DNA from: a virus
DNA: 64,000 nt
Strand: one strand, 5' to 3'
IMG/VR virus record: IMGVR_UViG_3300035204_001665
Coordinates: 1 to 64,000 of that record
Position numbers and translations under genes: made by a program. Under the pieces are notes generated by a model that worked only from the letters and a program-made list of their open reading frames with translations, ran no database searches and was not told the origin of the DNA. Shown here piece after piece: positions 7,172-42,500 of the stretch; position 1 is the first letter of the stretch, and the number at the start of each line of letters is the position of its first letter.

Positions 7172-7836
7172 AATTTATATCTCTCCATCATAAGGCTTAT
7201 ATCTTGAAGTGTGTTCTTCATCAGAACGTCCAGAATGGATGAGCTAGGGTTGTCATCGTTCATCTGAATAAAATTTAATTCAAGATTGCTCTCTCGAAAC
7301 CTATCCTTGTTATATAGAAGTTTTCCTCCGATTGGGTTTATATATACATCCGCACCTTCTCTGACGCATATATCTATGATTCTTTCTTGGCCCTTAAGTT
7401 CTCCCTTTGGGTATATAGATGAGCTCGGAACCAGCTCTGCTCGTATGTCAAGTAGCTCTGCTATATTACAGATAGAATTAAATAAAAATGACGACAGATT
7501 TCTCGCGTCGGTTAATATTATGTCAGATACAAGCTTCTCAACGTCATGGTAGTAGGGCGCCTTGGAGTACGTGTGTTTTATTTTTCTTATTAATTTAATT
7601 TTCCAGTTATGCTCTTCTGATAACGATAGCTCTCGTATTAATTTATTTCTGCTGCTTTTTTCGATACAAACATTAATTTGCTCAGGCCTGCCTTGAGCAA
7701 TGATATTGTTTCTATGTATCCATCCTCTTTTTATAAAATTCACGTCGTCCAAGATAACGAATTTATCCACAGTATTTATAAGTTGCCAGTATCCAATGTA
7801 AGGAAAGAAGTATGGTTGCATTATGCCTATTTTCAT
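7165..7836 (-). CDS. wbqC: WbqC-family protein (putative glycyl transferase for amino sugars)
   Basis: IMQPYFFPYIGYWQL, DDVNF...GWIHRN, YSKAPY, YINPIGG..LY and SILDVLM. Confidence 0.9.
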   Translation of the reverse strand: MKIGIMQPYFFPYIGYWQLINTVDKFVILDDVNFIKRGWIHRNNIIAQGRPEQINVCIEKSSRNKLIRELSLSEEHNWKIKLIRKIKHTYSKAPYYHDVEKLVSDIILTDARNLSSFLFNSICNIAELLDIRAELVPSSSIYPKGELKGQERIIDICVREGADVYINPIGGKLLYNKDRFRESNLELNFIQMNDDNPSSSILDVLMKNTLQDISLMMERYKLC

Positions 7837-11892: not shown

Positions 11893-11921
11893 ACGATATA
11901 GCCTATCCAAACTTTTGTCAA
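11893..11921 (-). promoter_or_regulatory. Sigma70-like promoter
   Basis: TTGACA-17 bp-TATCGT, 9 nt before ATG 11883. It would drive the minus-strand operon containing the sugar genes. Confidence 0.7.
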
Positions 11922-12526
11922 CCCTTTTTAAAAATATTTTTTGAATCCATTTGCTTTTTTATAGCCGCCCTTCCTTTTCCGTGAAGATTAATGATCGTCT
12001 GCGGTGTTAATTCGAATTTCTCAGCTATGTCTTTCCAAGTAAGTTTTGCTCCTCTTCTGAGATACCTCAGCTCAAAAATTCTAAATATCCTTTTATCATT
12101 TAATTTCTTTAGTATATCAAATGCTCGAGATATATCATTCTTATATTCTTCAACTGGAGCGAAGTCTTCTACTGATTTTTGATCGAAGAAATGATTAATT
12201 ACGCTTTCCTCTGTATTGACATATTTACTATTACTCTTTATATAATTTAAGCAATGATACCTAGTAAAGTTACCCAGCCAAGTAGAAAATTTCGCTTTTT
12301 TCTCTATTTTAAATGACAGAACCGCTTTAAAGAAAACAAAATCTTTATCTTTATAAATTTCTTGGATGTCTAATCTGTTTGCGAACTTGTTACATATAGA
12401 ATAGAAGAGGTTCGAATGCTTATCTCTGAGTTCTATAAAACTAGGGCCACATTTATTTTTAATTATTTTTTTTAATAAAATTAGATCCTCGTCACCTGTT
12501 TTAGTTTTCTTTTTTGGTTTTTTCAT
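11918..12526 (-). CDS. Phage RNA polymerase sigma factor (sigma70 family)
   Basis: Region-2-like FFKAVLSF....AKFSTWLGNFTRY and region-4 HTH LTWKDIAEKFELTPQTIINLH. Confidence 0.8.
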   Translation of the reverse strand: MKKPKKKTKTGDEDLILLKKIIKNKCGPSFIELRDKHSNLFYSICNKFANRLDIQEIYKDKDFVFFKAVLSFKIEKKAKFSTWLGNFTRYHCLNYIKSNSKYVNTEESVINHFFDQKSVEDFAPVEEYKNDISRAFDILKKLNDKRIFRIFELRYLRRGAKLTWKDIAEKFELTPQTIINLHGKGRAAIKKQMDSKNIFKKG

Positions 12527-13130
12527 TATACCACGAGACAAATTTATCTACCTCATTGTTAAGATAGTCATTATCTAGTGGATTGTCATGTTTTATTTTC
12601 TGCCATTTTACCAAAAAGTCAGCATTTTCCTTTAAAATGGGATTCATTCTCTTCTCCTCTTCGTTAACGGGAGGAAGCTCATATTGTTCACACTCCCAGC
12701 CGTGAGTCGGAGTAGTGTACTGGGTGATGTGTACGAGCACTCCATTCAGCTCGTTCTTTAACCAATGAACCTCATCTGTTTCATACTCTTGATACCGAAT
12801 ATCCGTTATAACTGGCGTGTCTTCCGTCTGAGCATTGATCAGGAAACCCTTCACGTCAAAATCCAACTTATCTATCCAGTGCCTACCGTTAGATAGTTTT
12901 CGCTTAGACGTCCCGTGAAAAACGAGGAACTCTCTGATCTTATCCTTGTCTTCTCTGGAGCATTCGAGGGGATCAATATCATAGTGTGTGTAGCACCAAT
13001 TTGCGCATTCATTTTTTAACTTATCTGCCAAAGCAAACCGCCTTACCGGTAGTTTTTTACTTAGTAGATTGAAAAATAAATCCTTCCCCGCTCCTGCTAC
13101 CCCGCTTAAACCTATTACTGTCCGCTCCAT
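12501..13130 (-). CDS. Deoxynucleoside monophosphate kinase-like P-loop protein
   Basis: IGLSGVAGAGKD, FALADKLK, R..L...G and VITDIRY..E. Start MERTVIG at 13130. Confidence 0.75.
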   Translation of the reverse strand: MERTVIGLSGVAGAGKDLFFNLLSKKLPVRRFALADKLKNECANWCYTHYDIDPLECSREDKDKIREFLVFHGTSKRKLSNGRHWIDKLDFDVKGFLINAQTEDTPVITDIRYQEYETDEVHWLKNELNGVLVHITQYTTPTHGWECEQYELPPVNEEEKRMNPILKENADFLVKWQKIKHDNPLDNDYLNNEVDKFVSWYNEKTKKEN

Positions 13131-13918: not shown

Positions 13919-14797
13919 ATGCCTTACAAAACAAAATATTATAGACCTAGAGTCGCAAAAGTCATAGCCCTATGGGGCGGAAGAAGACAATGGCAGGAGA
14001 ATCCTCATAAGATTTTTAATGAGCACAACCTCGAGCTATTAAAATGCCTAATCAAACATGAAAAAACGATAGATAATAAACATAAAATGGATTTATTTTT
14101 GGTGAACTCCACTCCATGGAACCTTAACCCAGACTACGTAGATTATTTAAACAAAATTAATGGAGACTCGACCAAAAACGGTAAGATTATTGTCCTTCAT
14201 AGGAAAAACTTCGGTCTTAGTCTCGGAGCCTTTGATTATGCTTTTCAAAAACACGCAAATGAATATGACTACTGGTTCTTCACGGAAGACGATTATATAA
14301 ACGTCGCAGAAGACTTCGTAGTGGGTGCAATAAATCAAATAAATAATTCTAACACGGGTTTCGTAGCAGCAAAAAAAATGTGTGTTACAAAAATCACGCG
14401 CTACGCTAGGGGAGGTACGGGTATGACTTCGACAAGTATCCTAAAAAGAGTCTTAGGACTCGGACTCAACAAAGACAGTAACGGTACTCCTCACCTACCT
14501 TTTCACAGGGCGGAGACTTACGTTCGATCTGGGGTAAATGGCGCCGCTAAGAACTTCTACAAGGCCGAAAGAAATTTCACAAACGTCATATATAAATTTT
14601 TAAAACTAAGACTAACATCACCCAAGATGAAAGGGATACAACTGCAGAGGAGCACGTGTACGAGCATTAATATCTATGAATTTATGGCGTATTTCTATCC
14701 AAATTTAGTCAAAAAGCATTTTGGAAATGAACTCAACGAAAAAAGAAAGCAAACGAAGGCTGAGGTAGGAGAATTCATTAATTGGCTTAGGAAATAA
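13919..14797 (+). CDS. Putative GT-A glycosyltransferase
   Basis: RKNFGLSLGAFDYAF...YDYWFFTEDDY. Likely start is MPYKTK at 13919. Confidence 0.55.
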   Translation: MPYKTKYYRPRVAKVIALWGGRRQWQENPHKIFNEHNLELLKCLIKHEKTIDNKHKMDLFLVNSTPWNLNPDYVDYLNKINGDSTKNGKIIVLHRKNFGLSLGAFDYAFQKHANEYDYWFFTEDDYINVAEDFVVGAINQINNSNTGFVAAKKMCVTKITRYARGGTGMTSTSILKRVLGLGLNKDSNGTPHLPFHRAETYVRSGVNGAAKNFYKAERNFTNVIYKFLKLRLTSPKMKGIQLQRSTCTSINIYEFMAYFYPNLVKKHFGNELNEKRKQTKAEVGEFINWLRK

Positions 14798-14844
14798 ACT
14801 AATCGTTTTTCTATGTGAATTACATTTTTCTAGAACACAAGACA

Positions 14845-14870
14845 CAAAACCCCCACTAAGGGGGCTTTGC
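14845..14870 (-). terminator. Rho-independent terminator
   Basis: Minus strand GCAAAGCCCCC-TTAGT-GGGGGTTTTGT followed by T-rich sequence. May be bidirectional. Confidence 0.75.
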
Positions 14871-15195
14871 GAAAAGTATATGCGAAACATTTTTCTTAGA
14901 CCCTGTGATTTTGTGCTGATGGGGCGTTCAGCGACATATACGCAACTCTTTCGAGAATCATCTCCCTTGTTACAGGGTGAGAAACTGTGCTTGAAAACTC
15001 ATTACAATGATTAACCTCAACACGCTGGGGCATTGCGGCGGGAATTACCCACCAGTTTTTTCAGAATGTATATATTCTGTAGCAGTTCTTTCCCTTTGCT
15101 GTGGACCCATACTACAGTCCTGATGACGCTTCATCTCACTTAGGAAACCTTATCCGCTGTCCTCTCGGCAGGATGAAAGAGATTCACACTCTTTC
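14846..15195 (-). ncRNA. Candidate ~350-nt structured non-coding RNA, class not recognised
   Basis: About 12 consecutive hairpins, GNRA tetraloops and G-U wobbles that work only on the minus strand. Has its own promoter and terminator, and no long ORF. Confidence 0.65.
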
Positions 15196-15200
15196 GAAAA

Positions 15201-15229
15201 ACTTTACTCCTCCTCCTTAAGATTGTCAA
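15201..15229 (-). promoter_or_regulatory. Sigma70-like promoter for the candidate ncRNA
   Basis: TTGACA (15229-15224), 17 bp, TAAAGT (15206-15201), embedded in the 3' end of the upstream gene. Confidence 0.75.
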
Positions 15230-15629
15230 GCTCATCTTTGTTGCTCATGAGGTTGGTAATGAAAATAAGATTTTTAATATCTTGCTCTGTGATATTCGTC
15301 GCATCGCATGTCTGTTTTTCATCGCCGATAATGTCACAGAACTTGTTGATCATAAGCGATACGGTTAATGCCACATCCGCGGAAATACTCACGCTTTGCT
15401 CAAAGGATGCAAATGACTTTCTTAAAATCCAATATTCGGTGTCTTCGTGACTGCTACCCGCGATTAGGTGAGCTTCTTCCAAGTCCTTCAGTGCAGATAA
15501 TATTGCTGCCCTGTCCCTCTTGGGACTATCTGTTATAGGTATGATTTTTAAGAAGTCTTTTTCAAGGCAAAAGGAATCATTTTCGGAAAACCATTGATAC
15601 AGGGTCCCTGAAGCTTCTAATACTGTCAT
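15204..15629 (-). CDS. Hypothetical protein
   Basis: 141-aa ORF with TATAAT immediately upstream of the ATG. Confidence 0.65.
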   Translation of the reverse strand: MTVLEASGTLYQWFSENDSFCLEKDFLKIIPITDSPKRDRAAILSALKDLEEAHLIAGSSHEDTEYWILRKSFASFEQSVSISADVALTVSLMINKFCDIIGDEKQTCDATNITEQDIKNLIFITNLMSNKDELDNLKEEE

Positions 15630-15669
15630 ACTTATTATAGATTAAAAAAAATTTTTAAATAAAAAATAC

Positions 15670-15698
15670 TTGCCTTGTTTTAGGTAGTGATGTAATAT
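15670..15698 (+). promoter_or_regulatory. Sigma70-like promoter, leaderless
   Basis: TTGCCT-17 bp-TAATAT, 7 nt before ATG 15706. Confidence 0.55.
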
Positions 15699-15705
15699 TT
15701 GTTCT

Positions 15706-15993
15706 ATGGAAGATACATCATATACATTCGAAAGCAATCCAGTTGTGGAAGCTGTAGTCGCCCCACGGAATAACGCTGTTGAGGAATCAAGCCGCCGTCG
15801 CGGCAGACCGAAGATTAGTGTACAGTGGCCAGAAGGTAGGTTCACCTTTGAATTACTTCAAACTAAGAACGTTTTGTCTGCTTCTTCACTCAGGAAGAAG
15901 ATGAGGGTCGAACTAAAGCGGGGCGGATTAGTGAAAGTAGATACGCTTAAAACGGCCTTTGGGCGCCCACAAAATATTTACGAAAAGGCCTAA
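15706..15993 (+). CDS. Small basic putative DNA-binding protein
   Basis: AT-hook-like RRRGRPK followed by a winged-helix-like segment ending GRPQNIY. Confidence 0.55.
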   Translation: MEDTSYTFESNPVVEAVVAPRNNAVEESSRRRGRPKISVQWPEGRFTFELLQTKNVLSASSLRKKMRVELKRGGLVKVDTLKTAFGRPQNIYEKA

Positions 15994-30505: not shown

Positions 30506-33500
30506 TTACCCCCTATTTTGTGTGGATTGATGGAGTATTCCTCCCTGTCTTTTCTGCTGTACGATAGTCTCTACTACGGTTTGTTTGATAAGTGTTCCAA
30601 GCGATCTGGCCTTTTCGAGAGATATCCCTTCTCCTCCAGTATTTACGTCGGTCGTTATCCCTCCGTTTTCGTTTAGATTTACGTTAATTGTAATATTGTT
30701 TGTTGTATCCCCATCAGCGACAGAGGGCTCAGACATTATTCCTTTGGCATTTTTCTCTGATCCCTTGCTTGATCGTAGACCATTTCCGCCCACGTACCCG
30801 CCCGAAGCAAACGCAGGGACATTCCCCTTGTTCAGTTGGGTAAAGAAATCTGAACCGTATTTTTGTACTGCACTTCTATTGACTACGTATTCTCCGCCCA
30901 TTAACATGGCTGGGATAGCGTCGCCGATTAGTCCGCCCGTGGCCTTCCCGATACCTCTACTGGTTACCGCTCCTCCCGAAGCTCCACCTAGCCAGCTAAA
31001 GAAGTTGCCGCCGACGGTGCCTTGCGCTCCGGGCATGCCTAGCCCAGCGCCACCTGTTAATGCACTTATGCCTAATGATGCCGCAGCAGCGATCATGGAG
31101 TACTTCATTCTCTTCTTCTTCGCGGCCTTCCATTTTGCTACTGCTTCTGCATGGGCAATTAGATCACTTGCTCTATCTTCGTAGTAGCTATAAAGTTTGG
31201 ACACCTTGTCTTGTCTAATTTTGTTCCTTGGATTGTCACTGTCGGCAAGTGCTTGTCTAGTTAATCTAGGATCTATTGAAAAGTAACTATGATCAAGCGA
31301 CGGGAACTTATCACTATCGTAAACAAATGCATTTCTTAAATTATAATCTACCCATCTTCCCTCTCTCCCATGTTTTATATTCGAGACCAGTCCTTCTTGC
31401 GGATCGGCGAATGCGTTTGCCTCCCATTGCGCTTTTAACTTAGCTATGTCTTTGGTAGACATTCCTAGTCCACCGTGCGTCGTGGGCTCAGACAAGTGCG
31501 TCCAGTAATCTACCTTATAGTTCTTTTTTCCAAAGAAGCTGGGGTCTGGATCTGTGTGTTCATATTGAGGTAGACCTCTTTGTCTTCTTAAGGCGGTCAT
31601 TTCTGACACTAAAGTTTTGCTGCCGTCAGGATATAGAATATATGCCGGCTGGCCTAATTTTGGATCTCCGACAATCTTTCCGGGGCCTCTTCCTGCACGG
31701 ACGCCTGCACCGACTCTGCCTCCGGTGGCATATTTATTTACCGCCCCAAATCCCTCATTATTAATGAGATCAATTAGAGAAACTCCATACTTTTTAACCG
31801 CCGCTTTTCTTAGTACATATTCCCCTTGTTGTAAAAATGCAGGCACATCGTCTTTGGTTCCTGACCCTCCTACAACTGGTCCACCTCTAGCAAATTTTTG
31901 AACACCATTATTAGTAATCAAGCCACCCGTTGCTGCTGGAGCAGCCTGCGCGAACGAGCCTATTACTCTATTTACTGTCATCTGGAGTACTTGATCTAGA
32001 GCATAATCGGCCAACTTTAGGAACATGTCACTGAAAGCTTCCTCCAAAGTCTTAGTTCCCTTAATCGCTTCGCCAAACGCAGAAGCTATTCCGCTTCTGA
32101 ACTCCATGCCAAATGTAAATAATGCTTCATCAGCATCGATCATCATTTCTTTGGTTCCGTAGTGCCAAGCGGCGAAGAGATCCTTGAAGGTCTGCTTCAT
32201 TTGATAACTTCCGTCCTTAATAGACTTTCTAGTTTCTTCCCTTCGAGCTTCTATTGTTTCCCGACTTAGTGTTCCCGGGTCGAGCATGTCTAAATTAATT
32301 TGTTCTCTTAGGTCGGTTAAATCATTTTTTAGTTTCTTTATTTTTATATTTTTCCATGCTTCCTCTAGACTCTTTCCATCTTTCGCCATTTGTTCCAGCA
32401 ATTTTGCTTGGTGTTCATATTTCTTGGCCTCCTCAGAGGCCGCTAGGGCTCCTTCCACATCTTCGCCTAACATCAAGGTATCGTGTTTAGCCCAAGCTCG
32501 CTTTGCTGCCACTTTCATATTTTCGATTACTGGAGCTATGGGAGTAGTAATACCCGGTTGGATTTTGCCCGGCATTAGATCTGGATGATCCTTAAGAAGA
32601 GACGCGGTACCCACTTGCCACGCTGCCCTTCCTGCTTGCCAAGTTTTTTCCTCTTGTGCAGAAATAGCTGAAGGCATTGCCCCAGAAGCCTTCATCAAAT
32701 AAAGAGTTCTTCTTTCTAGTTGGAACCGATTATCGTGAGCCTCCTTGGACATTTTGAGACTATTCTCGTGAAAGTTCTTCTGAGCCTTTGTCATCGCTAA
32801 GTAAAACTCTCTTATCTGCTTAGGCGTTAGCTTCTGACCGCCAAGGTCTAGTTGGGTTAGCTCGTCAAAGAGCCGCTTTTGTACTTCCGGGCTTTGCCCG
32901 GGACCAAATACATCCTCCGAGGTACCAAGGCTACCCTGAAGATATCCATGAAGCACTCGGCCACCTTGCTTATTTAAGCCAAATTTCTTTTCTAAATCTG
33001 TTATCCATTTTGGGCGTTCCCCCTTTCCTTGTATGCCCAAAGACGCAAGCAGCCCTCCCAGCTTTTTCTTAAGGGGGCTTTTACTATCTGACCAGTAAGG
33101 TACTCCCGGAGCCTCGCCGCCCAAGGGCCTAGCATCTATACCGGCTCTACGGGCCGCCTCAGGGGTTTGGTTCCACCCTATGTTCAAGCTCCTCCAAGAA
33201 TTAGCCGGGGCCTGTCCGGCTTGGATAAGCCTAGATTGACTAGGAAACAGCCCAAGCGGCGCATACCCGGGCCTTTTGCCCCCTGAAGAAGTATCAAGTC
33301 CCAAGCGTTTTTTGATCGTATCAATGAGGTTCTGGTCCTTGCCGCCTCCTCCAGTTCCAAACATAAACTGCTCTAAACTTTTTTCTATTCTCTTCTCAAG
33401 GCCGCTGGCCAATTGTTGCAAGTTGTCAGATGTCGCTGGGCCACTTCTCAATTGCAGGATTGAACGATCTAGTTCTTTTATCTCCGCGTCCAATTGTTGA

Positions 33501-36500
33501 AGCTGTAGGTTAAAGCCTTCTTTTAATAATTTTTGTAGCTCTTTAAGTGTGTCTCTCTGTGCGTCTGTAGCGTCCTCCATCACTGACCTAATATCTTCCA
33601 TCACTAACTGGGTACCTAATTGTTCATTCGGGGCAAGTATTTTTCTTATTTGTTCATCTAATTTCTTCTTCTTGGCGGGCATCCTTTGAATTGCATATAA
33701 AGTGGGGTCGAGACCTTCCAGCCTTATCTGGTCTGTTAGACCACCAATCAAATCATCAAGATTGTCTACTTGGTCCTCGACATATTGTTTTAATATTTTA
33801 TCTACTTCCTTTTGGGCAATCTGGATATCGAGATATCTCTCACGAATTACAGAGTCTGACTGCATTGCTGCTTGCCTTAATGCGTTAGCTTGCGTTTTGT
33901 AATGTTCGTATTTGGCCCTTAGTTGTGCTATTTTTTTCGGGTCCTCTTCCTGCGCCTCCATAATCTCTAGCTCTAGTCGCATTTCCTCTGCCATGACCTT
34001 GGTTTGATCAGATTCCTTCAATCGCGCATTTCTCCAAGCGGTCGCAGTTGGTCGGGTAGCCTGCGCTGCACTCGCTGCACTAGGATCTCTTGTCGCCGCT
34101 CCCCAGAAATCGAAACCGGTCGATTGACCTCCTTGGTATGCCATACTCGCATAATTTTTCCTCCAAGCGTCCATGGATAAACCTATTCGCCCACTACGCA
34201 TTTCTCTTTGTCCGGCTCTATTAGCGGTTGGTGTAAGTGACGCCTCGAAAATTCTTCTATTTAATTGACTTAAGTCTTCATTAGCTTGATCTGCATTCTT
34301 TAATTGCATTTCAAATAATATTCTTCGACGTTCTGTCTTGGCTGCTTCGTCTTTAATTTCGTTGTCGTAAATTTTAGCAAATTGGCTTTCGTATTTTCTT
34401 ACTCTTAGTTCATTTAAATTAGCGAGTGAGGTTATTTTTTCCTGAACCGTTTTCATTGGGGATAATTGAGTATCCAAGTTATCTAACATGGCATTTTCTA
34501 AAGCATCATTGAGATCAATCATTTGATCCTTTATATACGTTTTCATCTCTTCGCCCAGTGGGCCCTGTTGGGCTTTAGCTAAGTGTCTCCATCCGCCAAC
34601 GCCGAACATCTGACCTCCCACGCCAGAGAGTCTTCCCGCCTGATCCCAATTTGATCCGAGTTCAGGTTGCCCAAATAATCTGCCTATGCCGGGTTGATGC
34701 ACGGAAGTTCTAAGCATGGAGCCTCTATCTCCTATTGGAATACCGGCAGCAGTAAATTTTTCTTCTGTAGCTTTTCTTCCTCGTCTCCAATCCCCCACAG
34801 CCGAAGCGTGCTCTGTTGCCATTTGTTTTTTCCATTCTACATGTTTTTCCGCTGGAGTCAACCCGGCCCATTTTGCCTTGGCATTGTCGCCGTATTTTTT
34901 AACGTAGTGTGCTGGTGGAACTGTCTGAGTGTCAGCTGGCATCGCCCCCCTTCTCGGCGCGGGAGCGTCATAGCCTTTAACCTCTTCAGCTGTGATGCCA
35001 TATCTAGCCGCCTGTAAACTCACGTTGGGAGTATAACCCCCGAATTGGAGCCTTTCCATACTCGCACTATGACGCGTGGCTCGTGCAGCAGAAAAAGCTG
35101 CCCGATTGTCCCTAGTCGCAGGAAGTCTTTCGAGCTTCATCAATTTTTGTACGTTATCGTCTAGCGTGCCTTGTAGTTTTCTGAAGAAGTTCTCATGATC
35201 TTCGTCGAAAAGAACTTCTAGTCTGTCGACTAAAGTTTTTTGGAAATCTGTTAAGGCGAAGTCACCACCGAGAATCTTATCGAAATCTTGATCTCTTCCC
35301 CAGTCCGCAAATACTTCTTTAAATTTATAGCCAAGCGAAGTGTCTTTTAATTGACCCAATTCAGTCCTAGATTCAAGACCTGTAAACTTTGCGCGTTTAA
35401 AGGCCGTGTCTGCCGCATAGCCTTTTTCCATAAATTTTTGTATATCTATATCCCTCAAGATTTGAAGGGCCTTTATTTGATCTTGAAGGCTTCCGGCTTG
35501 GACGTTCGCTATGGCTTTTTCAATTCTTAGCCTGTACTCTTGGAGCTTTACGACATCTCCATGCTCCTCCCCAATCTTCTTGATTGCTTCCAAGACTCCC
35601 ATCAGCTGCGCCTGTTCCAATGCGTCCTGTCGGTCGAAATTATCAATGTCATTATCAAACTTGTCTTGCAGCTGCTCGAGTCTCGATCTTATAGAACCCT
35701 CTATTTTGCTTTCCTTAATGCCTGTCTCCAATGCCATTTGTACTTCATTGAGGACGGATTGAGGGCTACTTTCTGCCACCGCAGTCAATCCCAGACGTGT
35801 CCCAGTTCCGAAGCCCGCCCATTCCTTAGCAGTTCCGCCTCTGAAGAGCCACTCTGCCTCTTTTTGTATTCTTTTAAAGTCTGGTAATATAGCATCCATT
35901 TGCGACATGCGCTCTTGCTGCTGGTTCCACCAAAACTCTTTACCCCAATCTGTAAATAAGGACGGTCCGGCTGTCATAGGCCTTAAGTTAGGGTCACGGC
36001 CTTCATTTAGGCGTTCCCTCTCCTCGTTGTAGTATTCTTGATCTCTCAATGCTGCCAGCCTTTTTAGTCCGGTAGCTAAATCTCTTAACTCAGCATCAGT
36101 CATATCTATAGACTTCTTGCCTCCCTTACCGCCTTTGGTCCATCCGCCAACAAGTGAAGCTTTATATCTCTCGGCATCCTCTTGATCTTTGAGATTCTCA
36201 GATGCCTGCAGCCTGAAATAAGCGTCGATCGCAAGAGCACCTTGCCAGAATCTATTCTTTTTCATTCCAGACTCTCCGTACGAGCCGGCCTTCGGAACCT
36301 CTTTCCTTGCTGTCTCTTTATCTACTGCGAGCTCTATCCTCGCATCTCTCACTTTTAGTGCTTGGTTGCGCACAGCTCTTTCTCTAAAATCCCTTGCTAA
36401 ATCCGCCGGCGGCGGCGGATTTAAAGGCCCGGCCCCGGAAACTTCAAAAACTTGACCACCTTGGTCGATGGCACGTTCCTTAGCCTTAAGATTCAGAACC

Positions 36501-39500
36501 GCCTCTTGCCTGTCAATCCTTTCGTCGAGGAGTCTAATTCGTCTCCTTTCCCATTCTAGTGCATCTTTAAAATACTGTTCCTGCTTGTCGTTCGGCGCTA
36601 GATCCCATTCCTCACTCATGCCAAGTGCTTCTTTACTTAGCTTAATAGACAGTTTCTTATGACGCTCCGCTTCTGAATACGCCTTTTTGCGCTGTATTTC
36701 TAACTCGCGCTTTTCATGTTTATCGATATTGTCACGGCGCGAAAACTCCGTTATATTATCCCCTTTCAATGTCCATATATCGCCTCGCTGTCTATGAGCC
36801 TCCGCGAGCCTTTCCTTTTCAGCGATCTGAGCCCTGCGGGAGATATTAGGAAGGTCTTCGCCGTATTTCATGTATTTTTGATATGCATGTTTATAGCTTG
36901 CCAGCCAATCTTCATCGCCCCTATCTCCGGTCCTATCATTGGGCTCTACTCCCGTGTACCCCAGCTTTTTCGCCATAAACCATGCGCCTTGTTGATTTAT
37001 GACCCTATCGCCACCAGTGGTTCCGCCGAGGAGGCTGGTAAACATCTTCACCCACTGAGTTCCGGTGCCCACGTTCCTGTCAATTATTTGAGAAAGGGCT
37101 CCATACAGAGTAGCTTCCTCTCCCTTTTTATATTTCACGAAGAAGTCACCCTCGTCTGATACCCCATTCTCGAAAAAGTCGTCCCCAATGGCTGGCAGAG
37201 CGCCGCCGCCGAGTGGCACGATTCTACCCGCATCGAGCTCCTTCTGCGTATATGTTCCTCGTTTCCTATACATGCCATCCTGACTCCAAACCGTATTGCC
37301 GGCTGCATCTTTTTCCCATGGTTGCCAATTGCCCGCTTTTGCTACAGCTAAATTTGCCTGAAAGTCTGGTCCCATGTTCGCGAGCACGCCTGAATCAAAT
37401 CTTACATCTGATGGTATTTGTCCACGTGCTATTTGCTTAAGTGCTTCTACTCGTCCAGCATGACTGAGATTCGGATCATCAAATAGAGCTTGCCCGACTG
37501 ACATGAAAGCTTTAGCTTGCGCCGTCCTTGCCTCCCTTTGCGCTTTCTCAGCCGTACCCCCGGAACCATCAGCGAGCAAGTTTCCCTGATCCCACTTCAT
37601 CCAACCCATCTGCATAGCTAGATATTTTGACCGCAGATCTTTAAATTGTACATCCATCTTGCCTTGTTGGCTCAATCTTTCCTGTTCTGCGTCACTCGTG
37701 CTATTCATTAGCTGCATCGCTCTTTTTTCGTTCTTGTTAATCTCTTGGAGATTCTTCATGTACGTTTGAATTCCGAAACCAACGTTAAAAGCAGTGATGA
37801 GACGTGACAGGCTATCATCTATTGACTGGAATCCCGCTTCATTTGTCGCCGTTATCACTGTCCCGATATTGTCTATTCCGGTTTCTTTTATTGCTCGAGT
37901 AAAGGCACTTTGGTTTGCCTCCTCCAAGAATCTCCACTGATCCCCAAACATCTCCCTCAACAACTCCATATCATTTCTAATTTTGATCACATCTTCAGGC
38001 AAGGCTTTCAATTTCAACGCAGCGCTGACTTGCTGCATCGCGTCGTCTATTGCTCCTTCGCTCATTGATTTAAAGACGCCCTGCCTCCACAATTCATCGT
38101 CTGGTTTAGCGCCCCCCCAAGACCTCAGGTTTTTATCCTTAATTTTGAGCTGTTTTTGTACGTCTAAAGTCAGGCCCAGTACGGCACTAGCAATCATCTT
38201 GTCGTAAGTCGGGTCGGAAAGCTGTCCCGCGTCCATACTGAAATTTTTTGTTAGATCCTGTAAAGACTTAAAGTCCGCCCTTCCTCTATTCATAAGTCGC
38301 TGCGGTATAGTCGGGCTAAATTCCGCCTCCGCCCTTTCCTCTCGCAGACTTCTAGTCTTTTTCCATCTTTCTCCTCCAGCAAAGCTAGCTATCCCTCCTC
38401 CAAATTTTAACTGTTGTTGAAGTTCGATTAGTCTTTCTTGATTCTTTGTTTGTATTTTTTGAATCATTATCTCTTCTTGTTGTTGCTGTAGCAACTTCAT
38501 TAAGCTTTGTTCGGCCGATTCTTTCAGAGAGCCTATCTCATTCACTACGGAATCTATCTCGGTAGAACTCAATCCTACGGTATTAAGCTCCCGACGAAGA
38601 TTTTTCACTATGTTCGGCATCATTTGTTCCGGGGCAGCGGCTGATTGGTGCAGGGCTTTTCCCAGTATTTCAGAGAACGCCTGTTGAGCTCTCTCTCTTT
38701 TCTTTAATTCAGTTTTTTCAGTGATCGATAAGGGCTGGCCTTCTTTATATTGTTTTAGTTGTAGTCTTTGTACTGTCTTAGCATTTTCGTCCAGCTTTTT
38801 ATCAAGAACACCAATTATGCTGCGCTGAGTTTTTGCAACCAATAACTGCCCTGACGCTAAATATTTCTCCATAGTGGCCATCTCTGCTATCTGTTGCTTC
38901 CGCTGCATTTGATCCCATTTTCCCTCGAAAGGATCAATCAATTTCGAGTGACCCCTCGCGTTTGTTAGGACGGCCTTCCTAGAATAAGATTCTCTCATTC
39001 TTCTTCTTTCATTATGCCCTTCTACTCTTTTTCTTGCAATGTCAGTAATTGATTTAAGATTAAAATTAAAATGATCAAGCTGTTCTCCAGCTCTCTTCAT
39101 TGCTACGTTAAATACGCCAGATATCTCTTTATTTTTTCTTATTACTTCCGCCAGCTTATCTAACTCGTCTGCGGCCTCGCTTTCAGCCTTTAGGCGATGC
39201 AGAATCGCCCCGTTGAGAGCGGTCATATCATGTATTCCTTTAACTAATACCTGCTCTATCGCCTCCATCAGTTCGGGGTTTAGGCCAACCTCCGCGAACC
39301 ACTGCATATTATTTTTTACTCTCTCGTTATGCTTTATCCCGGGTCGGGTACCGGCCATCAATTTTCTTCTGAGCTCTTTGCCCGCAAAACCCTGAACGTC
39401 TTCCTTCTCTAACCTCCTCATGACAGAATCCACCACCGCATCTCTCGCAGCAGCTGCATTAAATCTCTGTTTTCTTGCCTGTTCAGCGCCACCCGCTGCA

Positions 39501-42500
39501 GCGGCTCCTCCACCGAATCCACCTTCTACACCTGTTTTGTCACCGCCCTGATGGCCCCAGAACCACCACCCAATTTCGTCACGCTCCTTCCTGCCTTTTT
39601 CTATAGTTCCCGCAGCTTCAATGTCTTTAGCAACATCCTTCAGGGATTTTTCGATTCTTTCGAAGGTCTTTTTGAGTTCGTCGCCGCTATGAGCAGCCGC
39701 CCTAACATCCGCAGCAAATTCTCTCGGTACATTTCTTACGGACTCGAACATCGCGTCCGTTCTCTTTTTTAATTGTTCGGGGCTGATATCTGGATCAGTT
39801 AAAGCCTGCTGGTATTCAGCTTGATTCTTAAGATACTCTTGGGAAAGATTTTGAAACTCTTGCAGTTTTTCATTTGCCCCCTCTAGGGCCTCCTTCCATT
39901 TTTTGGTTTGGTCTCTAGAAGCTTCTCCCCACTTTTCAATTCCATCCAACACAGCGAATGTTGCAGCGCCAGCCATCACCCATGGATTGCCGCTCATTGC
40001 TCCCATCAAGCCAATGCTCATGCTATCTTGGACGACCTTGGACTTCTGCTCATCCATTCCGAGCCCGGCCATTGCTCCGCCGACCATAGGCATCGCCATC
40101 ATTCCCATCATTGCCCCCTGTTGACCCCACTGTCCAACCATTCCTCCGCCGCGCTTCAACGAACCCATCATACCGCCCCCCGCCGCTCCAGCGGCGGCAC
40201 CGCCTACCATTTGCCCTGACGACATTGCATTTCTATTGTGCGCAGCAGCTTCTCTCGTGAGAGCTGCAGAATTTTTGTCATGTGCAGCGCGCTCTTCTTG
40301 AAGATCTATTTCTAGTTGCTTTCTTGTTGCTACTTCCTTATCGAGAGCTGCTCCTTCTTTTGTTCTTGAAACTTTATTCTTTTTTCTTTGTTGGACGCTG
40401 GCCCTTATTTCGTCCGCTTCTTTTTTTCGGTCTTTATTAGATTGGGTTAAAATTTTGTTTTCTTCCTTTTCCAGCTTTTCCTTTTCCTCATCAGTCATCG
40501 AGCTAGTCTTCCTTCCTTTAAGTCCAGCCTTTTCTCTAGCTTCCGATTTTTCTTTTCCGGTTAAATCGTCCCTTCCTCTTTCCTTATCTAACTTGTCGGC
40601 CTTGGCTAAATCTTTATCGTCTTTCTTTGTATTTTTTAAGTTTTTGGCAAACTCTTCTAGCGCTTGTTCTGCTTGCTCTGCGCCGTCGCCCAATTCTCTC
40701 TGCCGTTCCTTAAGATCCTCGCCCTCTGCCTGCATTGCTTCGAACCTAGTTCTAAGCTCTATGGCGGCTGAGCCTGTCTCTTTAAATTTATCTGCCAAGT
40801 CTTTGGCTCCCATAGCCATAAAGGCCAGAGCCATCGTATTTATGCCGGTGTCTACGCCGGTCATTCCTCCCCCCTCATCCTCCGCAAAGTTGGGAACAAA
40901 CCCGCTTGAAGACAAAACCTTTTGAGCAGCCTTGGAGTTTTGCACTGCCCTACCTATACCTTCTGGATGATCCCTTACTACATCAGCGAAACTACTTTGA
41001 GTTTTAGCGTCTCTTACATAAACTCCCACCCTAGGATTATAATCTAACGTCGGCTTTCCACCGAGCGCCTGCTCTGTCTCGATTGCTTCCATCACTCCGA
41101 AATTAGGAATGAAGCCCCCAGATTTTCCTTTGCCCTTTGTTCCCTTTTTACTACTTACTTCCGAACGTATTCTCCTAAATTCATTGGCTATTTTTTCAGC
41201 CATACTTTTTCGAAGGGTCGGTGAATTCTGGGCCTTGTAATCTGCATGACCAACAAAGGGTACACCAAATAAGTTTCTAACTTTTCCTGATCCTTTTGTA
41301 CCCGATCTAACATCAAATCGTGCAGTTTCTACATCTTTAGCTCTAGCGAACGCTGCGTCTAATCCTGCTTCAAATACGTTGCCAACCGCAGATTTGAGAG
41401 CGCCAGTATTAAAATATTTCCCCGGCTCAGGAGTTAAAGCAGGCTTAATTGGGTCTGGACTGAATTCCCTTGCATACGCTGTCGCTGTTTTTGTCAAAGA
41501 TTTTTCTACCTTTTTATGTAAAGAGTCCCTCCTGTTCTTGGGTATGTCTGGGTCATAAATATTAAATTTTATTCTCGTACTTTTCTTTCCTCTACCTGTT
41601 CCCGGAACTGACGCTATTGCTGAGGTCCCACGCCCAGCCCCGAGTCCCATCTCTGGCACTAACATCGCAGCCGACCGAGTAGCATCCCAAACTCCCCCAA
41701 CTCTTCTCGGCTCAGCGACAGCGAAATTAGGAATAAATCCTCCAGAGAATAGTTTTTCTTTTCTTGCCGCTAAAGCGTTTTTGGTATCAAACCCCATTAT
41801 CCTATTCATTTCGCCAAGGCTTCCTATGGCGGGAGTGCCAGAGGGAGACATCGTCCAAGTAGAAAGTTCATTACCTCTATTTTTCGTTTCTATACCTATA
41901 CGATTTTCTAGAGTACGTAAATGGGCAGCAGCCATTTGATCACCGCCCTTTATTTTTGATTGCAGCCTTCTCTTTAGGTGGCGCAAGCTAGAACTATTTG
42001 TTTCATATAAAGTTTTTTTAAAAATTTGAGCGACATATCTGGCTCTAAAAGATGGCTTAGATTCAACCGCAAAGTTTCTTCCTCCCACTCTTTCTCCCGA
42101 ATCATAAGGTAACTTGAGTTTCTGTGGGTCCATGTCTTTTGCCGCTTGACTCTTGCCTCTAAATCGACCCATTCCAAATCCTCCGTATCTTGCGGCAAGT
42201 GCGGCTTCCTGTTGTCCTCCTTTTTTCGCCGCTCTCCTTCCTGTTCCTTTCGTAAATCCGGCCCTTTCTTTTTCGGTTATTGGTTTTTGTTGACCCAGCG
42301 TATTGATGGTTACATATTCACTTCCGGGAATAACATATTTAATGACTTTGCCTAGTTCTGGGCCGACCTCTTTAGCTAGCACGTCTCCCCTAATTTTTAA
42401 TCTGCCACTAGACCCCTGTCTTCCCTGCTTGTCTACGCCAAGGCGTAGGGACGTAAGAAATTGCAAAAGGTTTGGAACAAATCCAAATGCGCTAGGTCCA

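What the first reader, a model, noticed from the sequence alone, without database searches (positions are those of the whole stretch)
14846..15229. Stand-alone ~350-nt highly structured RNA gene with its own promoter and terminator
Seen: this is the only large non-coding gap in a densely coding window. On the minus strand a TTGACA-17-TAAAGT promoter predicts a start near 15195, exactly at the first hairpin (GAAAGAG-UGUGAAU-CUCUUUC). It is followed almost without gaps by AUCC..CC-GAGA-GG..GGAU, GAUGA/UCAUC, GGAC/GUCC, AGCA/UGCU, CAGAAU/AUUCUG, GGUGGG/CCCGCC, GUG-UUGA..UCAA-GCAC, CUC-GAAA-GAG and GCUGA/UCAGC, then an intrinsic terminator. A long-range or alternative ACCCUGU/ACAGGGU pairing is possible (14972-14978 with 14900-14906). 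GNRA loops and G-U pairs work only on this strand. I saw no tRNA, tmRNA or RNase P hallmarks. Inference: an unclassified large phage ncRNA (protein sponge, anti-defence decoy, replication RNA or ribozyme), possibly partnered with the adjacent unknown proteins (15204-15629, 15706-15993).
Basis: partly seen in the sequence, partly recalled or inferred. Interest (0 to 1): 0.78.

Follow-up and report, generated by a model that had tools for sequence, protein, structure and literature searches.

The report
New folded RNA gene, marine phages
The gap holds a real gene for a large, intricately folded non-coding RNA shared by dozens of uncultured marine phages and absent from RNA catalogues; it carries one short word twice, before and after its end hairpin, and its job is unknown.

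Summary
Confirmed. On the minus strand at 15229-14811 lies a stand-alone RNA gene. It has a TTGACA-17-TAAAGT promoter and about 350 nt of branched, pseudoknotted RNA. A 12-bp hairpin with a U tract (T) follows, then a conserved 24-nt box.

I found 44 distinct homologues. All are in uncultured viral or marine metagenome contigs; none is in cultured phages or in the genome collection scanned with one core pattern.

On 35 non-redundant sequences the helices are 86-95% paired, against 30-53% when partners are slid. 59 of 93 pairs show changes on both sides. No ORF is conserved, and Rfam, tRNA and tmRNA searches are blank.

New here: a lineage-specific word of about 22 nt occurs twice, as B1 before T and B2 after it. 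The two copies co-vary in all 35 sequences. Both are complementary to the same internal segment A, so the 3' domain looks bistable or forms a three-way junction. The word occurs nowhere else in a complete 158-kb relative.

Function is unknown. My best reading is a stable trans-acting RNA with a termination-linked 3' module. Earlier notes of this scan describe what looks like the same family on other DNA, for example after a dUTPase gene. The dUTPase neighbour is confirmed here in two loci of the alternative gene order.

The parts
15201..15229 (-). Sigma-70-type promoter TTGACA-17-TAAAGT, lying inside the 3' end of the upstream 141-aa gene. Predicted start near 15194.
   Evidence: A site of at least 8 of 12 with a 17-nt spacer (16 nt in one) stands at the same place in 26 of 35 homologues.
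15055..15195 (-). 5' domain. P1 hairpin (15195-15189/15181-15175). P2 bulged hairpin (15172-15166/15156-15148). P3 (15144-15138/15099-15092) closes a three-way junction with P3a (15135-15131/15126-15122) and P3b (15120-15117/15106-15103). P4a hairpin (15079-15074/15067-15062). Invariant A-rich linker (15061-15055).
   Evidence: 87.3% of cells paired against 33-53% slid; 27 of 33 pairs changed on both sides; 0 of 500 shuffles reach the observed value.
14956..15054 (-). Conserved core. P4b hairpin (15054-15048/15042-15036). Pc (15031-15029/15016-15014), whose 12-nt loop holds the near-invariant GGCGUG (GCGUG in this window). Long-range P5 (15012-15007/14961-14956). P6 (15001-14998/14981-14978) with a near-invariant 16-nt loop (14997-14982). 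P7 hairpin (14977-14974/14967-14964).
   Evidence: 94.8% paired against 40-48% slid; 12 of 29 pairs changed on both sides. P6 and a possible GUG:CAC loop-loop contact never vary, so they are untestable.
14901..14955 (-). 3' domain, first part. Px GAAA hairpin (14955-14953/14948-14946). Segment A (14945-14933). Py hairpin (14932-14928/14919-14915), whose loop CCC (14923-14921) pairs with GGG (14903-14901) to form a pseudoknot.
   Evidence: The pseudoknot pair sets are CCC:GGG, GCUU:AAGC (L029, L057, L060) and GGCUA:UAGCC (L017).
14876..14900 (-). Word B1: a purine-rich run plus a CAUAUAC part. Its 3' part pairs with segment A (helix Pz, 14941-14934 with 14883-14876).
   Evidence: helix 2: 76.6% paired, 5 of 8 pairs changed on both sides. 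Searches show the twin-word co-variation.
14843..14871 (-). Hairpin T: a 12-bp stem plus U tract, with the form of an intrinsic terminator. The lower A-tract/U-tract pairs also covary.
   Evidence: helix 5: 94.5% paired, 8 of 12 pairs changed on both sides..
14811..14834 (-). Word B2, the second copy of the lineage-specific word, just past T. It is complementary to the 5' part of segment A and the 3' strand of Px (14948-14940 with 14825-14817).

Best explanation
This is a stand-alone gene for a large, pseudoknotted non-coding RNA of an uncatalogued family carried by uncultured marine phages. The RNA is about 350 nt when it stops at hairpin T, and about 385 nt if it runs on through box B2.

Shown: the gene has its own sigma-70-type promoter and about 13 covarying helices plus one pseudoknot. 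It has a near-invariant core made of an A-rich linker, the GGCGUG loop, and a P5/P6/P7 junction with a 16-nt loop. It ends in a terminator-shaped hairpin.

Also shown: a lineage-specific word stands both before T (B1) and after T (B2). The two copies change together in every lineage. Each is complementary to the same internal segment A.

Inferred: host RNA polymerase makes the RNA early in infection. Most transcripts stop at T and act in trans as a stable folded RNA, whose invariant core binds a conserved but still unknown partner (a protein or another RNA). The 3' domain is a two-partner module. In the terminated RNA, A pairs with B1. In transcripts that run past T, B2 offers A a second partner, giving either an alternative fold or a three-way junction with T as one arm. 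That would keep the RNA body folded apart from whatever follows it, or mark the read-through form for processing.

My odds: a real structured RNA gene of a new family, about 0.93. A stand-alone trans-acting RNA rather than a cis leader, about 0.6. The specific A/B1/B2 switch reading, about 0.3.
For: Homologues: 9 of 17 viral contigs hit by a 16-mer are true. Further scans gave 43 distinct sequences and one more distant member.

Covariation on 35 non-redundant sequences:
- 3' domain: 86.1% paired against 33-53% slid; 20 of 31 pairs changed on both sides.
- Core: 94.8% against 40-48%; 12 of 29.
- 5' domain: 87.3% against 33-53%; 27 of 33.
- In 500 shuffles none reaches the observed covariation score or the observed share of paired cells.

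The pseudoknot shows three different pair sets. No ORF is conserved, and 330 of 379 pairwise indel runs are not multiples of 3. The promoter is kept in 26 of 35, and the terminator is called by the scan. Rfam, tRNA and tmRNA searches are blank.

Stand-alone: the next gene is convergent in 13 of the 37 loci that reach that far. By my reading of the sequences, co-directional next genes have a promoter-like TTGAC..TAnnnT site of their own right after B2 in most lineages.

Twin word: the B1-B2 local score is 14.3 within a sequence against 6.9 +/- 1.6 across lineages. It is present in all 35 sequences and in L076. It is unique to this locus in the window, and the B2 pattern matches only itself in a complete 158-kb genome.

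Both B1 and B2 find their best partner along the whole RNA at segment A: about -8.4 to -8.9 kcal/mol, against -2.9 to -7.7 at the other well-sampled positions. The A:B2 helix is 73.7% paired against 30-63% slid. One of its pairs reads 16 C-G, 14 U-A, 3 G-U, 1 mismatch and 1 gap. In single-sequence folds A pairs mainly with B2 in 13 and mainly with B1 in 14 of 35.
Against: There are no expression data at all: no run on record as RNA holds the stretch. The start, the end and read-through are therefore predictions.

With narrowly cut segments, A:B duplex energies are not better than controls. A:B1 is -8.0 against -6.6 +/- 2.4 across lineages. A:B2 is -6.4 against -6.35 for shuffled B2.

The A:B2 helix has many G-U pairs. 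Its register differs between lineages, and one slid control (+3) reaches 63% paired.

The alignments are plain MAFFT, and the structure was partly derived from these same sequences. The purine-rich half of the word, which is the best-conserved part between B1 and B2, has no identified partner. If T terminates efficiently, B2 is rarely in RNA. The whole-RNA single-sequence fold has a z-score of only -1.8. No partner is known.
Confidence: 0.55

Rival explanations
1. The RNA is a cis-acting leader, that is an attenuator or processive-antitermination element. It would sense a signal and set read-through of T into the downstream operon (dNMP kinase, then a sigma-factor-like gene). B1 and B2 would then be nut-like RNA sites for a lineage-specific phage antiterminator.
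For: In 24 of 37 loci the next gene is co-directional. It is usually the dNMP-kinase-like gene, followed by a sigma-factor-like gene. Two co-varying copies of a word in one transcription unit recall lambda nutL/nutR, which co-vary with their N proteins (recalled). B2 shows covariation with segment A, which implies it is sometimes transcribed.
Against: In 13 of 37 loci the gene after B2 is convergent, so read-through would only make antisense RNA. By my reading, most co-directional next genes have their own promoter-like site right after B2. The downstream gene differs between the two arrangements. A leader of about 340 nt with about 13 helices is far larger than known attenuators. No antiterminator gene was identified.
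Confidence: 0.15
2. B1 and B2 act as DNA, not RNA. They would be two operator sites for a lineage-specific phage DNA-binding protein that flank the terminator, next to an otherwise unrelated structured-RNA gene.
For: Two co-varying copies of a word that is unique in the genome fit protein-site co-evolution. B2 lies just upstream of the -35 of the next promoter in several lineages. Several B2 copies contain short palindromes such as TTCTAGAA in the window. The upstream gene models with a winged-helix domain.
Against: The spacing between B1 and B2 runs continuously from 55 to 76 nt with no helical phasing. The two half-words are 1-2 nt further apart in B2 than in B1 in every lineage, which a rigid DNA-binding dimer should not tolerate. 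Read by eye, the winged-helix protein is acidic and its putative recognition helix carries few basic residues. Its fold matches are weak, with E of 0.03 or more. B2 is complementary to segment A with compensatory changes.
Confidence: 0.12
3. The RNA is a ribozyme or self-processing RNA. Segment A would be an internal guide that reads B1 and B2 as two substrate sites, so that the hairpin-containing piece between them is cut out or joined.
For: A large conserved core has near-invariant unpaired stretches and pseudoknots. One guide-like segment is complementary to two sites. The same genome carries a free-standing group I ribozyme elsewhere (RF00028, 71 bits).
Against: No ribozyme model of Rfam matches, even at E up to 10. 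No cleavage-site hallmark was recognised. No read data are available to look for joints. The idea rests on analogy only.
Confidence: 0.07
4. The locus is a replication origin, and the RNA is a pre-primer. The structured transcript would form a persistent hybrid at the purine-rich runs of B1 and B2.
For: The RNA sits beside a divergent early promoter region among nucleotide-metabolism genes: dCMP deaminase, dUTPase and dNMP kinase. The purine-rich runs would give stable RNA:DNA hybrids (established chemistry, recalled).
Against: GC skew only follows gene orientation, with no origin-like turn at 15 kb beyond that. There are no iterons, since the word occurs just twice. The covarying 13-helix fold and pseudoknot are not explained. 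Nothing explains why the two runs should share lineage-specific sequence.
Confidence: 0.05

Closest known systems
GOLLD, ROOL and OLE 'ornate large' RNAs (PMC12286853: outline and abstract read; Rfam accessions RF01998, RF03087 and RF01071 as given in earlier scan notes)
   Same: A large, multi-helix orphan RNA with covariation and no known function. GOLLD and ROOL being often phage- or prophage-borne is as stated in earlier scan notes and recalled, not read in the abstract.
   Different: No sequence or structure match to any Rfam model. About 350-385 nt here, against roughly 600-800 nt (recalled). Marine phage contigs only. It has the twin word around its end hairpin. Self-assembly was not tested.
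Lambda nutL/nutR and HK022 putL/putR antitermination RNA sites (recalled from textbooks; no paper read)
   Same: Two similar copies of a lineage-specific RNA element in early transcription units next to terminators. The copies co-vary between related phages.
   Different: Here both copies are in one unit and flank a single hairpin. They are complementary to an internal segment of a 300-nt folded RNA. In 13 of 37 loci read-through would serve no gene. No N-like protein is known.
Riboswitch or attenuator expression platforms (alternative pairing partners)
   Same: One segment (A) has two mutually exclusive or adjacent partners placed around a terminator hairpin.
   Different: The second partner lies after the terminator, not before it. 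No single regulated gene is conserved downstream. The body is much larger than known aptamers.
Free-standing group I ribozyme in the same phage genome
   Same: A stand-alone structured RNA, not inside a gene, in the same uncultured phage.
   Different: That one is a clear group I match (71 bits). The RNA studied here has no group I match and a different architecture.

Membership tests
Any Rfam 15 family (4227 models, including GOLLD, ROOL, OLE, 6S, RNase P, tmRNA, SRP, riboswitches and ribozymes) | A covariance-model score at or above the family's gathering threshold | tested here: not met
   0 matches in the whole window; at E up to 10 there are only 3 chance-level hits (12.8-16.5 bits, to human lncRNA pieces and UptR).
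Group I intron or ribozyme | A match to RF00028 (P3-P9 core) | tested here: not met
   No hit at this locus. The same library finds a 71-bit group I RNA elsewhere in this genome, which serves as a positive control.
tRNA or tmRNA | A cloverleaf or tRNA-like domain found by ARAGORN | tested here: not met
   0 genes in the window.
Protein-coding gene or small ORF | A conserved reading frame, with indels in multiples of three | tested here: not met
   the commonest start bin is shared by 18 of 35 sequences, with ORF lengths of 16-45 codons. 330 of 379 indel runs are not multiples of 3.
Structured RNA gene (generic) | Helices kept through compensatory changes, above slid and shuffled controls | tested here: met
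   86-95% paired against 30-53% slid; 59 of 93 pairs changed on both sides; 0 of 500 shuffles reach the covariation score.
Intrinsic (Rho-independent) terminator | A GC-rich stem-loop followed directly by a U tract | tested here: met
   (12 pairs, 7 GC). The hairpin is conserved in all 35 sequences. Read by eye, the U tracts are weaker in some lineages, for example GGGGGUAUUGU. Termination itself was not measured.
Cis-regulatory leader or riboswitch | It lies upstream of, and in the same transcript as, a conserved regulated gene | tested here: not met
   a convergent gene follows in 13 of 37 loci. The downstream gene family differs between arrangements. By my reading, a separate promoter-like site follows B2 in most co-directional lineages.
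GOLLD/ROOL-type self-assembling nanocage RNA | A homo-oligomeric quaternary structure with covarying intermolecular contacts | not testable with these tools
   This needs mass photometry or cryo-EM. No computation was done here.

The most novel reading that the evidence does not exclude
The RNA reads its own 3' end. A built-in guide segment (A) can take either of two copies of a lineage-specific word, one before and one after the end hairpin. The molecule would thereby sense or decide whether transcription stopped, or act as a ribozyme on these two sites. This would be a new kind of termination-coupled RNA device, joined to a conserved core that binds a universal host or phage target.
Probability: 0.15. 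Interest if true: 0.85.

Novelty: new variant of a known kind. Interest (0 to 1): 0.62.

Why it matters
Large, elaborately folded RNAs without known function are rare, and several have turned out to be ribozymes, ribonucleoprotein cores or self-assembling cages. This one is conserved across at least 44 distinct marine phage sequences, sits among early nucleotide-metabolism genes, and has a near-invariant core that should bind something conserved.

The twin word gives a concrete handle for experiments. It is unique to the locus, co-varies in every lineage, and both copies are complementary to one internal segment. Compensatory mutations in A, B1 and B2, together with 3'-end mapping, would show whether phages use a termination-linked RNA switch of a type not described before.

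It is not a first sighting within this scan: earlier notes describe what appears to be the same family on other DNA.

Tried and rejected
Cultured relatives: blastn (distant mode) of the locus against 50,697 phage records found no match.

Cellular genomes: one scan of species-representative genomes with a single core pattern gave 6 stretches, and none matches the family profile. This is one pattern only, so it is no proof of absence.

Expression: the look-up of sequencing runs listed no RNA holder. Read laying was therefore not used, and nothing is concluded about expression.

Partner protein: the upstream 141-aa gene has no Pfam or PHROG match. It models well (pLDDT 88), but Foldseek gives only weak winged-helix matches with E of 0.03 or more. 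I do not use it as a partner. The search for related loci with its alignment failed because no stretch was conserved enough.

Reverse transcriptase and RtcB: none in the 82.9-kb record, which is estimated 54% complete.

B as a general phage promoter: rejected. With up to 3 mismatches the full B2 word matches only itself in the window, and a looser fixed-spacing version of the word finds no further copy there. The B2 pattern matches only itself in the complete 158-kb relative. The TGTAAT inside the window's B2 resembles a motif that I saw by eye upstream of several structural genes, but it is not kept in other lineages. The 11-mer search was too noisy to use.

Origin of replication: the skew profile only follows gene orientation.

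RNAalifold on plain alignments recovered only part of the structure. No covariance model was built: a 350-nt model would probably exceed the calibration time limit stated in the tool's description.

A pattern with a mis-set gap missed the known loci and gave 5 chance hits plus L076.

Literature: three full-text searches found no description of this RNA.

Full report
WHAT IS THERE. The window is the first 64 kb of an 82.9-kb IMG/VR viral record with an estimated completeness of 54%. Between a convergent gene that ends at 14797 and a 141-aa gene at 15204-15629 (minus strand) lies a gap of about 400 nt. The scan returns a TTGACA-17-TAAAGT site at 15229-15201 (minus strand, 10 of 12). It also returns a 12-pair hairpin with a U tract at 14871-14843 on the minus strand. 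Rfam gives nothing for the whole window at gathering thresholds, and only chance-level hits at E up to 10. ARAGORN finds no tRNA or tmRNA. A single-sequence fold is unremarkable on either strand, with z = -1.8 and -1.7. The case therefore has to be made by comparison.

HOMOLOGUES. The 141-aa neighbour led to two viral contigs in which the non-coding stretch is better conserved than the protein.
- An exact 16-mer from the core hit 17 viral contigs. Nine are true homologues by blastn and 8 are chance hits.
- A second pattern added 2 viral contigs.
- One metagenome scan gave 37 stretches.
- After removing 8 contained duplicates there are 43 distinct sequences. A later scan added a more distant member, L076.
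- Forty of the 43 are full-length. Three partial ones (L046, L052, L065) were dropped, and collapsing sequences at 97% identity or more leaves 35. All counts below are on these 35.

Cultured phages show no match by blastn. A scan of species-representative genomes with one core pattern gave 6 chance hits and no homologue.

STRUCTURE. I aligned three segments with plain MAFFT and counted named helices.
- 5' domain (P1, P2, P3 closing a junction with P3a and P3b, and P4a): 87.3% of cells paired against 33-53% when partners are slid; 27 of 33 pairs changed on both sides.
- Core (P4b, Pc, P5, P6, P7): 94.8% against 40-48%; 12 of 29 pairs. P6 and a possible GUG:CAC loop-loop contact never vary and cannot be judged.
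- 3' domain (Px, Pz = A:B1, Py, the pseudoknot and T): 86.1% against 33-53%; 20 of 31 pairs.

In each case none of 500 shuffles reaches the observed covariation score. These shuffles ignore relatedness, so the slid controls are the fairer comparison.

The loop of Py pairs with the three G just before B1. This pseudoknot appears as CCC:GGG in most sequences, GCUU:AAGC in three and GGCUA:UAGCC in one (the script could define the hairpin in 24 of 35).

No ORF is conserved. The window's 29-codon ORF recurs at the same alignment columns in only 2 of the 34 other sequences, and 330 of 379 pairwise indel runs are not multiples of three. A promoter of at least 8 of 12 stands at the same place in 26 of 35, with a 17-nt spacer in all but one. 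The nine without one are one sequence cut at a contig end, three whose TTGACA fell at the edge of the stretch I cut out, and five in which no TTGAC site is visible. In seven of them the RNA directly follows another gene.

CONTEXT. The usual gene order is: a divergent block (glycosyltransferase-like gene, small genes, dCMP deaminase), then the 141-aa gene, the RNA, a dNMP-kinase-like gene, a sigma-factor-like gene and a glycosyltransferase. In 7 loci the order is instead: upstream gene, RNA, two small genes. The upstream gene is a dUTPase in the two loci I tested. The gene after the RNA is co-directional in 24 loci and convergent in 13; in 6 loci the contig ends first. By my reading of the sequences, co-directional genes in most lineages have a promoter-like TTGAC..TAnnnT site of their own right after the conserved block. 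The RNA is therefore a unit of its own and not the leader of one particular gene.

The 141-aa protein models confidently as a winged helix plus a helical domain. It looks acidic by eye, and its fold matches are weak. I see no case for it as the RNA's partner.

THE TWIN WORD. A word of about 22 nt stands just before hairpin T (B1, 14900-14876) and again just after it (B2, 14834-14811).
- All 35 sequences and L076 have both copies.
- Within a sequence the two copies score 14.3 in local alignment, against 6.9 +/- 1.6 for copies from different lineages. The words differ strongly between lineages.
- Read from the paired words printed, B1 is one nucleotide longer in its first half in the lineages I compared, and B2 is one or two longer in its second half in most of them. 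Ongoing gene conversion would erase such fixed differences, so both copies appear to track a common third constraint.
- The spacing between the copies runs from 55 to 76 nt without phasing.
- With up to 3 mismatches the window's B2 word matches only itself in the window, and a looser version finds no further copy. In a complete 158-kb relative with terminal repeats, that genome's own B2 pattern matches only itself.

WHAT THE WORD PAIRS WITH. I slid a 24-nt window along each RNA and computed duplex energies. Both B1 and B2 find their best partner at the same place, segment A between Px and Py. The means there are -8.4 to -8.9 kcal/mol, against -2.9 to -7.7 at the other well-sampled positions.
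- A:B1 (helix Pz) is 76.6% paired, with 5 of 8 pairs changed on both sides.
- A helix between the 5' part of A and the middle of B2 is 73.7% paired against 30-63% slid. One of its pairs reads 16 C-G, 14 U-A, 3 G-U, 1 mismatch and 1 gap over the 35 rows.
- In single-sequence folds of the 3' domain that include B2, A pairs mainly with B2 in 13 and mainly with B1 in 14 of 35.

Against this: with narrowly cut segments the A:B energies are not better than cross-lineage or shuffled controls. The register of A:B2 differs between lineages, the helix is rich in G-U pairs, and one slid control reaches 63%. The purine-rich half of the word has no partner that I could find.

READING. The comparative evidence establishes a real structured RNA gene of a family that is not in Rfam. 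I read it as a stable RNA, made early from a host-type promoter and acting in trans through its near-invariant core. The 3' domain offers segment A two partners. The terminated RNA can use B1. A transcript that passes T can also use B2, either as an alternative fold or as a three-way junction with T as one arm.

The lower, A:U-rich part of the T stem also covaries (helix 5). A terminator alone would not need that. It suggests the hairpin is also a structural part of the RNA.

Whether B2 is ever in RNA is unknown, because no run on record as RNA holds the stretch. The rivals are a cis attenuator or nut-like system, DNA operator sites, a ribozyme with A as its guide, and an origin pre-primer. 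They are listed with their evidence in the Rival explanations section. None is excluded.

RELATION TO EARLIER NOTES OF THIS SCAN. A look-up with a majority-type homologue found four earlier notes on other genomes that share a few short words with it. They describe a pseudoknotted RNA of 310-370 nt in about a hundred marine viral contigs, and one places it after a dUTPase gene. I confirmed a dUTPase directly upstream of the RNA in two loci of the alternative arrangement, so this is very probably the same family seen before on other DNA. Another note (e1-5975741) mentions co-evolving direct repeats in a 340-nt marine phage RNA. I had recorded the twin word before reading it (note written, look-up). 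I also confirmed the group I ribozyme noted elsewhere in this genome (RF00028, 71 bits). It is unrelated to the RNA studied here.

LITERATURE. Three full-text searches found no description. I read the outline and abstract of PMC12286853 (GOLLD, ROOL and OLE structures) and passages of PMC10690425. The latter's catalogue of IMG/VR candidates may contain this motif, but its tables are not open here.

VERDICT. This is a new family of the large orphan phage RNA kind, with an unusual twin-word 3' module. Its function is unknown.

Noticed in passing
window 15630-15705, and the gene starts at 15629 (minus) and 15706 (plus): The two divergent early genes have TATAAT-like hexamers only 5-8 nt before their ATG and no Shine-Dalgarno sequence, so they look leaderless. 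Most genes in the window lack a Shine-Dalgarno sequence and have A-rich upstream sequence.
   Followed up: partly
upstream of the genes starting at window 29342, 44425 (minus), 47954 (minus), 50458 (minus), 19763 (minus) and 15706: A motif (A/G)TGTAAT stands 8-25 nt before several structural-gene starts. It may be a phage-specific promoter element. The window's B2 contains the same hexamer, but other lineages do not keep it.
   Followed up: partly
window 11918-12541 (minus): A 207-aa sigma-factor-like gene with weak matches (PHROG sigma factors at 9e-07; Pfam Sigma70_r2 at 2e-04, below cut-off). It lies two genes downstream of the RNA in the usual arrangement.
   Followed up: no
just after B2: window about 14800, and the same point in L012, L018, L002, L032, L034 and others: Reverse-oriented accessory genes of at least four unrelated families are inserted at the same point, right after a conserved AAAACG that follows B2, in 13 of 37 loci. 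It looks like a hot spot for gene insertion.
   Followed up: partly
   Followed up: partly
window 15204-15629 (minus): The 141-aa early protein models with pLDDT 88 as an N-terminal winged helix plus three C-terminal helices. It looks acidic by eye and has no family match.
   Followed up: yes
L017, about 7530-7580: Three tandem copies of a word of about 9 nt (GATACGTAA-like) lie between B2 and the start of the dNMP-kinase-like gene. This is the one co-directional lineage in which I saw no obvious TTGAC promoter there.
   Followed up: no
window 30506-44425 (minus): A single 4639-codon ORF, with other ORFs of 2152, 1717 and 1425 codons in the same window. Earlier notes call the longest a tape-measure protein. 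I did not examine them.
   Followed up: no
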